From: a virus
DNA: 12,797 bases
UHGV virus genome: UHGV-1675436
Direction: 5' to 3' (one strand)
Shown: piece after piece, positions 9,001 to 12,797 of the stretch
Layout: each line of letters begins with the position of its first letter
Numbering within the stretch: the stretch's first letter is position 1
Position numbers: made by a program

Positions 9001-12000
9001 GGCCAACTCACCCTGCTGTTCTTTGGTTAAAGAGTCCCAATACGCTTTCATACAATATGTACCTCCGGTATACATATTACATGATTGAGATGAACCTTCA
9101 AGATACTTGTACCTTATCGGTACAAAGGTTTTAATTTCTTTATGAAAACAGTCCATGACATCCGGCGGTCTAACGCCAGAAAACTGAGAGATGGTGTTGG
9201 CGGGAATTCTTCCTTTGCCACCATGATTGATCGCGAGCCAACCCAGACCAGCAGGTTTATGGGAGATGGTGCAACTAAAAATATCGGTGACAGCATGGCA
9301 CGGCACATCGAAAAATGTTTCGACCTGCCTGTCGGATGGCTTGATCAAGAACACCAGACAACAAACATCACAAAAAAACCTGATGTTTCAATTACTAACA
9401 AACAAATAACGTTAGTCCCTGTCATATCATGGGTACAGGCCGGAGCATGGAAAGAAGTTGGCTATTCTGAGGTTGATTTGAGCACAGCAGAAACTTATCC
9501 CTGCCCTGTACCCTGTGGCGAAATGACTTATATCTTGCGGGTGATTGGTGATTCAATGATTGATGAGTACCGCCCGGGAGACATGATTTTTGTTGATCCT
9601 GAAGTCCCTGCCTGCCACGGTGACGACGTTATTGCATTGATGCACGATTCAGGCGAAACCACCTTCAAGCGGTTGATAGAAGATGGAACACAGCGTTATC
9701 TCAAAGCATTAAACCCAAACTGGCCTGAGCCTTACATTAAGATTAACGGTAATTGCTCTATAATTGGTACAGTGATTTTCTCGGGAAAACCAAGAAGATA
9801 CACAATAAAGGCCTAATCAATATTTATGAACCTGCTTCGGCAGGTTTTTTTATGCTTGACAATGTACCCATGAGATACATAATGTATCTAAAAGAAACAT
9901 AACACAGGCAAGATTAAAACAAAATTTGGTTGTAACACGGCGTATGGCACATGCGTCGTTAGCGGTCTGGGGACGTTAAAGGGGACAATCCACTCCTTGC
10001 TCGGGCAAACAAACCAGGTAGCCGGAATGTGCAAGTCAATGATAATGCTGATAAGACGCCTAACCAGCGTGGCGATCCGGTTTGACGCCTGGGAAGAGAC
10101 CAGGGTGCAACGATGAGGGTATTTATGGAGCCGCGACAAAGTGTGGTGCCGTAACTGGCTAAGTGCTCTCAGCGTTGTGGTAATCCGCGAAATGGCGCGG
10201 CGGTAAGTATGGCGGGGTTACTCTTTCCCCGTTGAGGACACCGGATTGTCAGGTTGACCATACGCCTGAGTGACAACCCCACCACAACAGCCACTGCTTT
10301 GGCGGTACCAGTTTGTACACTTGCTTCCGGCTGGTACCGCTCTTTTTACAAAACAGAGAAGAGCATCACCGGACGACGGGCTCATAACCCAATCCATCCG
10401 GGCGGCTGCCACCGCAGGTGTTCTTCTCTGTTTTGTGGAGAAACCAACCGACCTTGCAGGGTCGATATGATTAGGAGCAGCAAAATGGCTAGCGAACGCA
10501 GTACTGATGTGCAGGCATTTATCGGGGAGCTGGACGGCGGCGTATTTGAAACAAAAATCGGCGCAGTTCTCAGTGAAGTCGCTTCCGGTGTGATGAACAC
10601 GAAAACCAAAGGTAAGATCTCACTCAACCTGGAAATCGAACCATTTGATGAGAACCGTGTGAAAATCAAACACAAACTCTCATATGTTCGCCCGACTAAC
10701 CGCGGGAAAATTTCCGAAGAAGACACCACCGAAACGCCGATGTATGTCAATCGCGGTGGTCGCCTGACTATTCTGCAGGAAGACCAGGGACAATTACTGA
10801 CTCTTGCCGGTGAACCTGACGGAAAACTCCGCGCAGCAGGTCATTAATATCGTTCTTAATTAACCGATTATTTATCTCATCACTGAATATCTTTATATAG
10901 TGAGGACTTATTATGTCTCAGAACTTAGACGCAACCGCAATTAATCAAATCCATGCCCTTATTTCTGCTCAGGGTGTTAATGAAATTATCAGTAAGATTG
11001 GTGCCGATGCTGTGGCATTGCCTGAGAATTTCCGCATTCATGATCTGGAAAAATTAAATTTAAATCGCTTCCGTTTCCGTGGTGCGCTTTCCACTGCCAG
11101 CATCGATGACTTTACTCGTTATTCTAAAGATCTTGCAGATGAAGGCACCCGCTGCTTTATCGATGCTGATAATATGCGTGCCGTCAGTGTTCTTAACCTG
11201 GGTACTATTGATGAACCAGGTCACGCAGATAACACCGCCACTCTCAAACTGAAAAAGACAGCTCCGTTCTCTGCTCTGTTGTCTGTTAATGGCGAGCGTA
11301 ACTCCCAGAAGTCACTGGCAGAATGGATTGAAGACTGGGCCGACTACCTTGTGGGCTTTGATGCTAATGGTGACGCCATTCAGGCAACCAAAGCGGCTGC
11401 GGCGATCCGTAAAATCACAATTGAAGCGAACCAGACCGCTGATTTTGAAGATAATGACTTCAGCGGCAAACGCTCCCTGATGGAGTCTGTCGAAGCGAAG
11501 ACCAAAGACATTATGCCAGTGGCATTTGAATTTAAATGCGTTCCGTTTGAAGGTCTGAAAGAACGTCCGTTTAAATTACGCCTCAGCATTATCACTGGCG
11601 ATCGTCCTGTACTGGTTCTGCGCATTATTCAGCTGGAGGCGGTGCAGGAAGAAATGGCTAACGAATTTCGTGATCTGCTTGTTGAGAAATTCAAGGACAG
11701 CAAAGTAGAAACCTTTATTGGTACTTTCACCGCCTGATTTCATTACTGCAAATGCCCCTGCGGGGGCATTTATGGAAACGTAATTTACTCAATAATCGCC
11801 GGATGGTGAGGGATTCTTTTTACCAGAATTCAGCGCGGTGCAGCGCATATACGTGGAGAACAAAATGTCATTTATCAAAACTTTTTCTGGGAAGCATTTT
11901 TATTATGACAGGATAAATAAAGACGACATCGATATTAACGATATCGCGGTTTCCCTTTCAAATATCTGTCGCTTTGCCGGTCATCTTTCGCACTTCTACA

Positions 12001-12797
12001 GCGTCGCCCAACATGCGGTTCTTTGCAGCCAGCTGGTGCCGCAGGAATTTGCTTTTGAAGCGTTAATGCATGATGCAACAGAAGCGTATTGCCAGGACAT
12101 TCCCGCACCACTGAAACGCCTTCTTCCTGACTATAAACGGATGGAAGAAAAAATAGACGCCGTAATCCGTGAGAAATACGGGTTACCCCCGGTTATGAGT
12201 ACACCCGTGAAATATGCCGATCTCATCATGCTGGCAACCGAACGCCGCGATCTCGGGCTTGATGATGGCTCTTTCTGGCCTGTACTGGAAGGCATCCCGG
12301 CAACAGAGATGTTCAACGTGATTCCACTGGCACCGGGCCATGCCTACGGGATGTTTATGGAACGTTTTAACGATTTATCGGAGTTACGCAAATGCGCATG
12401 AATGTTTTCGAAATGGAAGGGTTTCTTCGCGGGAAATGTGTACCGCGAGATCTGAAAGTGAACGAAACAAATGCTGAGTACCTGGTACGTAAATTCGACG
12501 CGCTTGAAGCTAAATGTGCGGCACTGGAAAACAAAATAATACCAGTGTCAACTGAACTGCCACCAGCAAATGAAAGTGTTCTGTTATTTGATGCTAATGG
12601 AGAAGGCTGGCTGATTGGCTGGCGTTCTCTCTGGTACACCTGGGGACAAAAAGAAACCGGAGAATGGCAGTGGACATTTCAGGTCGGGGACCTTGAAAAC
12701 GTCAATATCACTCACTGGGCAGTAGTGCCTTTCTTTTCAGCATTCGGTTTCTGTTTCAGCGAGATGAAGTTGCCGATGATCCGGGTGAAATTCTTCA

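What the first reader, a model, noticed from the sequence alone, without database searches (positions are those of the whole stretch)
10485..12797. yfdP/yfdQ/yfdR/yfdS-like early-left module with an HD-domain nucleotidase
The early-left operon consists of three genes whose lengths (120, 274 and 178 aa) and order match yfdP-yfdQ-yfdR of the cryptic CPS-53 prophage, plus a Trp-rich fourth gene. The 178-aa product has a His...HD metal-binding signature of YfbR-type 5'-deoxynucleotidases. Here the module is in an apparently intact immunity context under a repressor-controlled pL-like promoter, which argues for an early lytic function such as nucleotide-pool manipulation or counter-defence, not a decayed remnant.
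Basis: partly seen in the sequence, partly recalled or inferred. Interest (0 to 1): 0.45.

Follow-up and report, generated by a model that had tools for sequence, protein, structure and literature searches.

The report
Known yfdPQRS phage operon, structured leader
These are the already described prophage genes yfdP-yfdQ-yfdR-yfdS, here in their native repressor-controlled early operon of an SfV/mEp460-type temperate phage. The genes are ordinary, but a conserved folded RNA leader in front of them does not seem to have been described.

Summary
Window 10485-12729 encodes YfdP, YfdQ, YfdR and YfdS, 98-99% identical to E. coli K-12 CPS-53. The same DNA is in 3110 of 5426 complete E. coli genomes and in phages SfV, mEp460, Ayreon and cdtI.

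A near-consensus promoter lies just after the cI-like gene and is overlapped by two copies of the operator palindrome that also occurs three times at OR.

None of this is new. The cluster is published as common in lambdoid early-left operons. K-12 YfdR is published as a weak HD 5'-deoxynucleotidase homologue that binds DnaA and, with YfdQ plus YfdS or YfdT in multicopy, blocks oriC initiation.

What I add:
- YfdP-YfdQ is an obligate pair (84 of 86 loci). YfdR follows in 60 and YfdS in only 6.
- Neither YfdP nor YfdQ has an informative fold relative.
- The roughly 595-nt leader holds an intrinsic terminator, which is the 3' end of the published sRNA-17. It is followed by a covariation-supported three-way-junction RNA (10345-10438) that is absent from Rfam, and K-12 has lost it.
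- One hairpin of that RNA copies the initiator-tRNA anticodon arm.
- In other phages the same RNA precedes RdgC instead of YfdP-YfdQ.

The parts
9142..9816 (+). cI-like repressor (context). It is an S24 peptidase / LexA-family protein, annotated ymfK in E. coli and cI in SfV.
   Evidence: Pfam Peptidase_S24 at E 2e-26; annotations.
9828..9847 (+). Intrinsic terminator of the cI transcript.
   Evidence: 8-bp stem followed by TTTTTATG; annotated as a terminator in SfV.
9856..9883 (+). pL-like sigma-70 promoter, TTGACA-16-CATAAT.
   Evidence: 11 of 12 matches, the best site in 8800-12797.
9862..9900 (.). Two adjacent 19-bp operator-like palindromes (OL), at 9862-9880 and 9882-9900, lying over the promoter.
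   Evidence: The pattern ATGTAY-N7-RTACAT gives 5 hits in the window against 1.03 expected. All lie in the two regions that flank cI. The other three are at 9057, 9090 and 9107 (OR).
9890..10484 (+). Untranslated leader of about 595 nt between the promoter and yfdP.
   Evidence: RefSeq and SfV annotate no gene in the matching stretch. The MFE z-score is -3.9.
10301..10347 (+). Intrinsic terminator in the leader: a 13-bp stem (10301-10341) and a U-run (10343-10347). It corresponds to the 3' end of the published sRNA-17.
   Evidence: Fold of -21.2 kcal/mol. In the alignment other genera show a different hairpin sequence followed by a T-run at this place (by eye, not counted). The sRNA-17 supplement alignment contains this sequence.
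10345..10438 (+). Conserved three-way-junction leader RNA. P1 is 10347-10367 paired with 10417-10437 (21 bp here). P2 is 10369-10401. P3 is 10402-10415 and varies in length.
   Evidence: 26 sequences from 24 species-representative genomes, a further Klebsiella prophage and the window itself. 98% of cells are paired against 37-53% when partners are slid. 14 of 37 pairs carry compensatory changes against 6.1 in shuffles (0 of 500). The covariance model scores 80-110 bits on the + strand and 32-49 on the - strand. No Rfam 15 family matches.
10377..10390 (+). Hairpin CGGGCUCAUAACCC inside P2, 14 of 14 nt identical to the anticodon arm of the E. coli initiator tRNA (metZ).
   Evidence: Direct comparison with the annotated metZ sequence. 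It folds as 3 G-C pairs plus a 7-nt loop in the window's own MFE.
10449..10464 (+). Small hairpin (P4) just upstream of the ribosome-binding site.
   Evidence: 6 pairs, 98% of cells paired across the alignment.
10472..10480 (+). Shine-Dalgarno region of yfdP (TAGGAGCAG, with AGGAG 8 nt before the ATG).
   Evidence: Read from the sequence.
10485..10847 (+). yfdP, 120 aa, Pfam PF27127 'YfdP'; function unknown.
10913..11737 (+). yfdQ, 274 aa, DUF2303; function unknown.
11750..11771 (+). GC-rich hairpin (AAATGCCCC-TGCG-GGGGCATTT) between yfdQ and yfdR; a weak terminator or stabiliser.
   Evidence: Read from the sequence. It is the joint in natural yfdPQ deletions.
11865..12401 (+). yfdR, 178 aa, HD-domain phosphohydrolase.
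   Evidence: 99% identical to K-12 b2361. PHROG 318, dNMP phosphatase. H50, H69, D70, E73, D78 and D119 are conserved. Closest solved relative is Atu1052 (2GZ4) at E 4e-14.
12392..12729 (+). yfdS, residues 1-113; the start overlaps the yfdR stop.
   Evidence: 111 of 113 residues identical to K-12 b2362; PHROG 583.
12730..12797 (+). Divergent tail. The open frame continues but the DNA has no match anywhere searched.

Best explanation
SHOWN. This is the promoter-proximal part of the early-left (pL) operon of an SfV/mEp460-type lambdoid prophage. It carries the orthologues of K-12 yfdP, yfdQ, yfdR and yfdS. The promoter lies directly after the cI-like gene and is covered by two copies of the operator palindrome also found at OR. 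A leader of about 595 nt follows. It contains an intrinsic terminator and then a conserved three-way-junction RNA, a small hairpin and the yfdP ribosome-binding site.

FROM THE LITERATURE. In a lysogen the module is silent. Replacing the terminator-containing sRNA-17 segment with a resistance cassette raised yfdP about 95-fold. K-12 YfdR, 99% identical to this one, binds DnaA domain I through Phe46 and competes with DiaA and DnaB. Multicopy yfdQR plus yfdS or yfdT inhibits initiation at oriC.

INFERRED. After induction the operon is transcribed from pL. Passage through or past the leader terminator, and translation or stability of the first cistron, are governed by the leader RNA. Its 21-bp P1 helix makes RNase III processing the simplest guess. 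RNA-mediated antitermination is the alternative.

Once made, YfdR shuts down host chromosome initiation by occupying the DnaB/DiaA site on DnaA. Its weak dNMP phosphatase activity is secondary. YfdP and YfdQ act together as a DNA-transaction accessory. They are an obligate adjacent pair, they occupy the slot that RdgC takes in sister phages, and in distant phages they sit next to Erf, YqaJ exonuclease, Abc2 and SSB genes. YfdS is a variable add-on.
For: Identity and spread.

Promoter, operators and terminators.

Leader RNA. The G-U pairs are on the + strand only (77 of 962 cells).

K-12 has lost the promoter and leader.

sRNA-17 maps to the terminator, and its deletion derepresses yfdP and yfdR.

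YfdR-DnaA biochemistry and the multicopy phenotype: PMC4776307.

HD catalytic residues are conserved, including the equivalents of YfbR E72 and D77.

Gene linkage: P-Q adjacent in 84 of 86 loci, R following in 60 of 86, S in 6 of 86.

Neighbours: Erf, YqaJ and SSB; Abc2.

Alternative cargo after the same leader RNA in 80 viral loci:
- P(-Q(-R(-S))): 53 (46 of them with Q; the other 7 show P only)
- RdgC(-R): 10
- R directly: 6

No N homologue in this phage type, as also noted in PMC12315714.
Against: - The DnaA effect was seen only in multicopy, was 'moderate' in vitro, and the authors themselves allow that it may be an artefact. Deleting yfdQRST in K-12 had no replication phenotype.
- yfdP was not part of the suppressing fragment.
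- YfdS and YfdT, needed in that assay, are rarely conserved next to P-Q-R.
- PMC12315714 argues against a recombination role, because the cluster co-occurs with complete Rec modules.
- YfdP and YfdQ have no fold relative, and hhalign of YfdQ against RdgC gives 0.07% probability. Slot equivalence is therefore positional only.
- The derepression in the sRNA-17 deletion could come from read-through out of the inserted cassette.
- No cleavage, antitermination or binding activity of the leader RNA has been measured.
- In Yersinia and Proteus only P1 is kept.
Confidence: 0.5

Rival explanations
1. Nucleotide-pool manipulation is the main job. YfdR acts as an early 5'-deoxynucleotidase, like the phage T5 Dmp enzyme (known from my own knowledge of T5). 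It would convert dNMPs to deoxynucleosides to reshape pools during lytic growth.
For: The HD metal ligands and the equivalents of YfbR E72 and D77 are conserved across 49 homologues. PHROG 318 and RefSeq name the protein a dNMP phosphatase or 5'-deoxynucleotidase.
Against: Scores are below the curated YfbR cut-offs. PMC4776307 reports that YfdR's nucleotide affinities are much lower than YfbR's. Destroying dNMPs makes little sense for a phage that, as far as the window and its relatives show, carries no host-DNA degradation function.
Confidence: 0.2
2. Counter-defence. The HD protein, or YfdP-YfdQ, neutralises a nucleotide-based host immune signal or another defence system.
For: Early-operon position. 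Accessory, mosaic behaviour of the cassette. HD hydrolases can cleave signalling nucleotides (general knowledge).
Against: No similarity to any PADLOC component. No fold relative. No experimental hint in the papers found. The conserved partners are DNA-metabolism genes.
Confidence: 0.07
3. A lysogen-benefit or exclusion cassette. The genes would serve the lysogen (stress tolerance or superinfection exclusion, as with lambda rexAB) rather than lytic growth.
For: According to PMC4776307, yfdQ and yfdS deletions in K-12 increase H2O2 or MMS sensitivity. RdgC, which takes the same slot, is reported to be RexA-like in structure. In K-12 a host regulator, SrsR, drives yfdPQ.
Against: In the intact prophage the genes lie downstream of the operator-covered promoter and of a terminator. 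They gave essentially no reads in a lysogen: yfdP 0.49 and yfdR 0. The K-12 expression comes from a secondary junction that replaced the native leader.
Confidence: 0.1
4. The leader element is not a regulatory RNA. It would be a DNA-level feature (a conserved module boundary for phage mosaic recombination, or a protein-binding inverted repeat), and the tRNA-like hairpin would be coincidence.
For: It sits exactly at a mosaic joint where different cargo genes are exchanged. The tRNA-like loop is invariant, so it has no covariation support, and it is lost in Yersinia and Proteus versions.
Against: 14 pairs carry compensatory changes, and pairing is 98% against 53% or less for slid partners. G-U pairs are tolerated on the + strand only. 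P3 length varies by numbers that are not multiples of 3 while the helices are kept. The arms are 49-75 nt apart, too far for a simple protein-binding palindrome.
Confidence: 0.1

Closest known systems
yfdP-yfdQ-yfdR-yfdS(-yfdT) of the cryptic prophage CPS-53 (KpLE1), E. coli K-12
   Same: Same genes in the same order at 98-99% protein identity. yfdS overlaps the end of yfdR by 10 nt in both (coordinates; identities).
   Different: K-12 has lost cI, pL/OL, the leader terminator and the leader RNA. Homology starts about 25 nt before the yfdP ATG. K-12 expression is instead driven by SrsR sites in the yfdO-yfdP spacer.
Early-left regions of phages SfV (orf32-orf29), mEp460, Ayreon, cdtI and the LLS/ST64B group
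   Same: 97-98% DNA identity over 80-94% of the whole window. Same cI-pL-leader-yfdPQRS layout. [quoted passage not shown]
   Different: SfV has about 400 extra bases with orf33 between cI and yfdP. The window diverges from all of them after 12729.
YfbR, the HD-domain 5'-deoxynucleotidase of E. coli
   Same: HD fold signature. The local alignment [21 protein letters not shown] / FEALMHDATEAYCQDIPAPLK keeps H68, D69, E72 and D77.
   Different: Only about 40 residues align. Scores are below the family cut-offs. The closest solved relative is Atu1052, not YfbR. Much lower nucleotide affinity and DnaA binding are reported for YfdR.
sRNA-17 of E. coli K1 RS218 / UTI89 (Sun et al. 2020, PMC7719688)
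   Same: Same leader. The 3' 67 nt or so of sRNA-17 are window 10282-10347, the terminator. Its deletion derepresses yfdP and yfdR.
   Different: The window carries only the 'degenerate' 3' part of the 193-nt RNA. The paper treats it as a trans-acting sRNA and does not describe the structured element downstream of the terminator. That sRNA-17 is in the sense orientation is my inference from the published coordinates.
HK022 put RNAs (protein-independent antiterminators)
   Same: A cis-acting folded RNA in the early operon of a lambdoid phage that lacks N. PMC12315714 suggests a put-like mechanism for this phage type.
   Different: put is about 70 nt with two stem-loops, starts at the transcript's 5' end, and occurs in both early operons. 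This motif is a three-way junction about 455 nt downstream of the promoter, lies after a terminator, and has a single copy. The covariance model finds nothing in HK022, and blastn of window 7000-10500 (early-right end, immunity region and leader) against HK022 found nothing above chance.
RNase III site and nutL in the lambda N leader (from my own knowledge)
   Same: A long structured leader between pL and the first early-left gene, with a double-stranded segment of about 20 bp just upstream of the first ribosome-binding site.
   Different: No N gene. No conserved boxA or boxB: the boxA-like CGCUCUUU is only the terminator's 3' arm and is not conserved. Loop sequences are strongly conserved, which is unusual for RNase III sites. 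Cleavage is untested.
Phage RdgC homologues (PF04381)
   Same: They occupy the same position: after the same leader RNA and before a YfdR-type HD gene.
   Different: No sequence or fold similarity to YfdP or YfdQ.

Membership tests
YfdP family (Pfam PF27127) | Sequence membership | tested here: met
   118 of 120 residues identical to K-12 YfdP. All homologues carry the precomputed PF27127 hit. The local Pfam copy lacks the model, so it gave no hit.
DUF2303 / YfdQ family (PF10065) | Full-length match above the gathering score | tested here: met
   311 bits against a cut-off of 26.6, covering profile positions 2-269 of 269.
HD-domain metal-dependent phosphohydrolases | H...HD...D metal ligands present and conserved | tested here: met
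   H50, H69, D70 and D119 are at least 97% conserved in 49 homologues. The protein aligns over 157 residues with the HD protein Atu1052 (2GZ4).
YfbR-type 5'-deoxynucleotidase (NCBIfam NF003009, Pfam PF12917) | Score reaches the curated cut-off | tested here: not met
   NF003009: 19.9 bits against 122. PF12917: 24.3 against 25.9. In both only about 60 residues match.
YfbR-type 5'-deoxynucleotidase | Catalytic Glu72 and substrate Asp77 equivalents | tested here: met
   E73 and D78 are conserved and aligned to YfbR E72 and D77.
YfbR-type 5'-deoxynucleotidase | dNMP phosphatase activity | not testable with these tools
   Second-hand only. PMC4776307 cites Zimmerman 2008 for much lower nucleotide affinity than YfbR. 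The primary paper is not held.
DnaA-binding YfdR (Noguchi and Katayama 2016) | Same protein as the one assayed | tested here: met
   176 of 178 residues identical; the differences are R16K and D23V.
DnaA-binding YfdR | Binds DnaA domain I and inhibits oriC initiation | not testable with these tools
   Literature only.
YfdS / DUF551 (PF04448) | DUF551 domain match | tested here: not met
   K-12 YfdS scores 22.2 bits against a cut-off of 22. The window protein gives no hit because its C-terminus diverges after residue 113.
Lambdoid pL early-left operon | Promoter next to the repressor gene, overlapped by operators shared with OR | tested here: met
Lambdoid pL early-left operon, N/nut type | N gene and boxA/boxB nut site after pL | tested here: not met
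   No ORF is annotated between pL and yfdP. The boxA-like string is not conserved. The absence of N is also stated for the related LLS phage.
HK022 put RNA | Two-stem RNA of about 70 nt at the 5' end of both early transcripts, with sequence similarity to put | tested here: not met
   The model finds nothing in HK022 at E up to 10. No blastn similarity. The window has a single copy.
Any Rfam 15 family | Covariance-model match to 10296-10484 | tested here: not met
   The best matches over the motif are a 16-bit plant microRNA-precursor hit and a 14.5-bit hairpin-ribozyme hit on the opposite strand, both chance-level; nothing in the whole-window scan.
tRNA gene or tRNA-like element | Cloverleaf detectable | tested here: not met
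   ARAGORN finds no tRNA or tmRNA in the window. Only the anticodon arm is shared, 14 of 14 nt with metZ.
Intrinsic terminator (10301-10347) | GC-rich hairpin followed by a U-run, with a hairpin and T-run kept at the same place in other genera | tested here: met
   13-bp stem at -21.2 kcal/mol followed by UCUUUUU. In the alignment other genera show a different hairpin sequence followed by a T-run at this place (by eye, not counted). The RACE-mapped 3' end of sRNA-17 fits this position.
Known anti-phage defence systems (PADLOC) | Any component match | tested here: not met
   No families for any of the four proteins.

The most novel reading that the evidence does not exclude
The three-way-junction leader (10345-10438) is a new class of phage cis-regulatory RNA, and its exact copy of the initiator-tRNA anticodon arm is functional. 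It would engage a factor that reads that arm: the 30S P site with IF3, MetRS, or an anticodon nuclease such as VapC. That would gate or protect expression of the early-left operon in N-less lambdoid phages. It would also mark a cargo slot in which YfdP-YfdQ and RdgC are functional equivalents.
Probability: 0.15. Interest if true: 0.75.

Novelty: already known. Interest (0 to 1): 0.38.

Why it matters
The four genes add nothing new. They are a further copy of a module present in more than half of complete E. coli genomes and already discussed in intact lambdoid phages.

The value lies in the native context that K-12 lacks. It shows that the experiments on CPS-53 were done on a module cut off from its promoter, terminator and leader RNA.

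It also gives three concrete handles on open questions:
- How N-less, Rec-less, Chi-rich lambdoid phages control their early-left operon. The handle is a covariation-supported leader RNA found in prophages of about 20 enterobacterial genera.
- What the published 'sRNA-17' really is. It looks like the terminated 5' part of this leader.
- What YfdP-YfdQ do. They are an obligate pair, exchangeable in position with RdgC, and neighbours of Erf, exonuclease and SSB genes elsewhere.

If the leader RNA proves functional, it would be a new Rfam-type family with a clear genetic assay.

Tried and rejected

3. The leader motif as a known RNA. No Rfam hit, no tRNA, no HK022 put similarity.

4. A nut site. 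The boxA-like CGCUCUUU is the terminator's 3' arm and is not conserved.

5. The leader as coding sequence (the in-frame TTG extension from 10254 and the 66-aa ORF at 10270-10470). Rejected because P3 length differences are not multiples of three and substitutions are compensatory. A good SD also precedes 10485.

6. A second copy or a trans-pairing partner of the motif in the window. There is only the one covariance-model hit plus its reverse strand, and blastn-short gives chance-level words only.

7. A pseudoknot between the tRNA-like loop and the SD. No covariation; judged by eye.

8. Defence-system membership. PADLOC is empty.

9. The origin of window 12730-12797. No match in E. coli genomes, phages or 290 fetched loci.

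10. Primary papers for YfdR enzymology (Zimmerman 2008) and for SfV (Allison 2002) are not held.

11. The first viral-contig scan with the YfdP alignment returned only 99%-identical loci, useless for covariation. The species-representative genome scan solved this.

12. Two early scripts failed because one locus file was not yet mounted.
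Full report
**Observation.** The flagged stretch holds four co-directional ORFs:
- YfdP, 10485-10847, 120 aa
- YfdQ, 10913-11737, 274 aa
- YfdR, 11865-12401, 178 aa
- YfdS, starting at 12392, overlapping the yfdR stop by 10 nt and running off the window

Against the annotated K-12 MG1655 CPS-53 proteins they are 118/120, 272/274, 176/178 and 111/113 identical. Megablast of 10200-12797 finds the DNA in 3110 of 5426 complete E. coli genomes, annotated yfdP, yfdQ, yfdR and yfdS. 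The whole window is 97-98% identical over 80-94% of its length to phages SfV, Ayreon, mEp460, cdtI, 2H10 and a set of Stx2c phages.

Every match stops at 12729. The last 68 bases match nothing I could search, so YfdS here has an unexplained different C-terminus and loses the marginal DUF551 hit that K-12 YfdS has.

**Context.**
- The cI-like S24 repressor (9142-9816) ends in a terminator at 9828-9847.
- Nine bases later lies the best sigma-70 match of the region, TTGACA-16-CATAAT, at 9856-9883.
- The 19-bp palindrome ATGTAY-N7-RTACAT occurs five times in the window against 1.03 expected. Three copies lie between the cro-like and cI-like genes (9057, 9090, 9107) and two lie on top of this promoter (9862, 9882). 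That is the classical OR/OL arrangement.
- In K-12 all of this is gone. Homology to the window starts only about 25 nt before the yfdP start codon, and K-12 expression depends on SrsR boxes in the secondary yfdO-yfdP spacer.

**What is already known.**
[quoted passage not shown] It says the first is a putative 5'-nucleotide phosphatase and the other two have no known function.
- PMC4776307 shows that multicopy yfdQRS or yfdQRT suppresses over-initiation and inhibits initiation at oriC.
- It found that deleting the genes has no phenotype.
- It names the SfV ORFs as homologues and proposes a role in the ancestral lytic phage. The authors allow that the over-expression effect may be an artefact.
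- It also reports, citing Zimmerman 2008, that YfdR's nucleotide affinities are much lower than YfbR's.

'Nucleotide-pool manipulation or counter-defence' is not what the existing data point to.

**The proteins.**
- YfdR keeps the HD ligands H50, H69, D70 and D119, and the equivalents of YfbR E72 and D77 (E73, D78), in 49 homologues that are 48-99% identical.
- It does not reach the curated YfbR cut-offs, and its closest solved relative is Atu1052, 2GZ4.
- YfdQ (DUF2303) and YfdP (PF27127) were modelled from alignments, with pLDDT 77 and 75. Neither has an informative structural relative in the PDB or in BFVD.
- PADLOC gives nothing for any of the four.

**Gene linkage.** In 86 loci (80 from a scan of one genome per species, 6 prophage contigs fetched by protein look-up):
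- YfdQ follows YfdP in 84, and the two exceptions are truncated contigs.
- YfdR follows in 60, all Enterobacterales.
- YfdS follows in only 6.

In distant hosts the P-Q pair sits among recombination genes:
- Erf, YqaJ exonuclease, YfdP, YfdQ, SSB in Endozoicomonadaceae
- YfdP, YfdQ, SSB in Proteus
- a YqaJ-domain protein then YfdP, YfdQ in a Thiohalophilus MAG
- Abc2 then YfdP, YfdQ in Salmonella

The conserved unit is P-Q, usually with R. S is an accessory.

**The leader.** Between the promoter and yfdP lie about 595 nt with no annotated gene and an unusually stable fold, z = -3.9. nhmmer showed that the last 190 nt or so are conserved at the DNA level in prophages of many genera whose YfdP is only 55-75% identical. 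The alignment shows these elements in order:
- a GC-rich hairpin with a U-run (10301-10347), which is an intrinsic terminator. In the alignment other genera show a different hairpin sequence followed by a T-run at this place (by eye, not counted)
- a three-way junction (10345-10438), with a helix P1 of 19 consensus pairs (21 bp in the window), a P2 arm, and a P3 hairpin whose length varies by 0-26 nt in steps that are not multiples of three
- a conserved GGAGA
- a small hairpin (10449-10464)
- the ribosome-binding site

On 26 distinct sequences:
- 98% of cells pair, against 37-53% when partners are slid.
- 14 of 37 pairs show compensatory changes, against 6.1 in shuffles (0 of 500).
- One pair splits CG 13, GC 12, UA 1.
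- G-U pairs (77 cells) are tolerated on the + strand, which is the sense strand for yfdP.

A covariance model scores 80-110 bits on the + strand and 32-49 on the - strand. No Rfam 15 family matches, ARAGORN finds no tRNA, and I found no paper describing the element.

**The tRNA-like hairpin.** The P2 arm ends in CGGGCUCAUAACCC (10377-10390). This is 14 of 14 nt identical to the anticodon arm of the annotated initiator tRNA metZ, and it folds in the same register: three G-C pairs and a 7-nt loop.

I treat this with caution. The stem is invariant, so it has no covariation support. The loop varies at positions 37-38 in some genera. In Yersinia and Proteus only P1 survives.

**Link to the literature.** Sun et al. 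2020 (PMC7719688) described 'sRNA-17', a 193-nt RNA from an mEp460-like prophage of E. coli K1.
- Their supplementary alignment contains ...caccacaacagccactgctttggcggtaccagtttgtacacttgcttccggctggtaccgc, which is window 10282-10340.
- From their coordinates, the 3' end falls about 139 nt before the yfdP ATG, at the U-run of the terminator. This assumes that hypothetical genes were removed when they defined the 'intergenic region'. The RNA is then sense to yfdP. That is my inference.
- Replacing sRNA-17 by a cassette raised yfdP from 0.49 to 47 reads and yfdR from 0 to 8.5 reads. I read this as a cis effect of removing the terminator, or as read-through from the cassette, not as trans regulation.
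- The window has only the 'degenerate' 3' part of sRNA-17.

**The same leader with other cargo.** A 16-mer scan of viral contigs followed by the covariance model found full-length motifs of 79-108 bits that are not followed by YfdP. Among 80 loci:
- 53 have P(-Q(-R(-S))); 46 of these show Q, the other 7 show P only.
- 10 have an RdgC homologue (PF04381, E 1e-113 to 1e-30), usually followed by a YfdR-type HD gene.
- 6 go straight to YfdR.
- The rest are chance 16-mers, deletions or contig ends.

So the leader RNA marks a slot in which YfdP-YfdQ and RdgC alternate upstream of YfdR. This equivalence is positional only: hhalign of YfdQ against RdgC gives 0.07%.

PMC12315714 notes that RdgC is RexA-like and guesses that it is in the cI transcript. 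The motif suggests instead that it lies in the same leader-led unit as yfdP.

**Antitermination.** This phage type has no N, and the authors of PMC12315714 guess at a put-like RNA. The motif is not HK022 put. It has a different architecture and position, it is present once, and the model finds nothing in HK022. Whether it nevertheless acts on RNA polymerase, is cut by RNase III at its 21-bp helix, or controls translation cannot be decided here.

**Verdict.** The finding is real and correctly identified, but it concerns an already described gene module, and the functional guesses are only partly in line with published data.

My best account, at confidence 0.5, is this:
- It is a cI-repressed, terminator-gated early-left operon whose leader RNA controls the first cistron.
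- YfdR targets DnaA to stop host initiation.
- YfdP-YfdQ is a paired DNA-transaction accessory.

The one element that seems undescribed is the leader RNA. It is present in all the published relatives too, so it is a new reading of known sequence rather than a property of this window.

Noticed in passing
window 7711-7798 (-) and 7823-7899 (-): Rfam C4 antisense RNA (82.8 bits) and the isrK Hfq-binding RNA (63.7 bits) lie in the early-right operon. This is a P1 immI / Gifsy-type antirepressor control unit. It overlaps the 278-aa ORF 7423-8259, which SfV annotates as 'immunity region'. A KilA-N antirepressor-like gene lies downstream at 3697-4539.
   Followed up: no
whole window: There are 16 Chi octamers. 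GCTGGTGG is on the + strand at 630, 3057, 5502, 7711 and 7938. Its complement is at 285, 624, 1444, 3186, 3457, 4606, 5858, 6668, 8214, 8560 and 12560. About 0.15 per strand is expected from base composition. [quoted passage not shown]
   Followed up: partly
window 12730-12797: All similarity to E. coli genomes, phages and fetched loci stops at 12729, inside yfdS. The remaining 68 nt keep the frame open but match nothing. They may be a mosaic joint or a truncation point of unknown origin.
   Followed up: yes
L002 (K-12) 9248-9604 compared with window 10080-10484: The CPS-53 deletion joint lies about 25 nt upstream of the yfdP ATG. K-12 therefore keeps the Shine-Dalgarno sequence but has lost the promoter, the terminator and the leader RNA. 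The replacing spacer is the strongest SrsR (YgfI) binding site in the K-12 genome (PMC9181523).
   Followed up: partly
L093, L112, L118, L120, L127, L128, L131-L133 and L169, about 150-200 nt before yfdP: In many genera the loop of the leader terminator carries GGAGGA-N7-ATGTTCTG(A/C). This is a Shine-Dalgarno sequence plus a tiny ORF (Met-Phe-stop in some) that runs into the 3' arm of the terminator. It looks like a possible translation-coupled attenuator. It is absent from the window.
   Followed up: no
L086 5531-5635 (+) and L149 3532-3677 (-): Weak second hits of the leader-RNA model (26 and 23 bits) lie 200-300 nt upstream of the main motif. They may be degenerate duplicates of the P1 helix.
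   Followed up: no
window 9925-10300; L107, L108, L115, L116: The upstream half of the leader (roughly 9930-10115) is also conserved at the DNA level in Kosakonia and Phytobacter prophages that have different repressors (nhmmer). It folds into a large domain in the MFE. Its structure was not analysed.
   Followed up: no
L170, L182, L190, L196 (viral contigs): These are natural deletions that join the leader RNA directly to the hairpin between yfdQ and yfdR, removing yfdP-yfdQ precisely. YfdR and YfdS then follow the leader.
   Followed up: partly
window 6379-7197 (-): The replication module seems to consist of a single O/DnaD-like HTH protein with no helicase or loader gene. PMC12315714 notes the same for LLS-type phages. 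This makes a DnaA/DnaB-directed activity of YfdR more intriguing.
   Followed up: no
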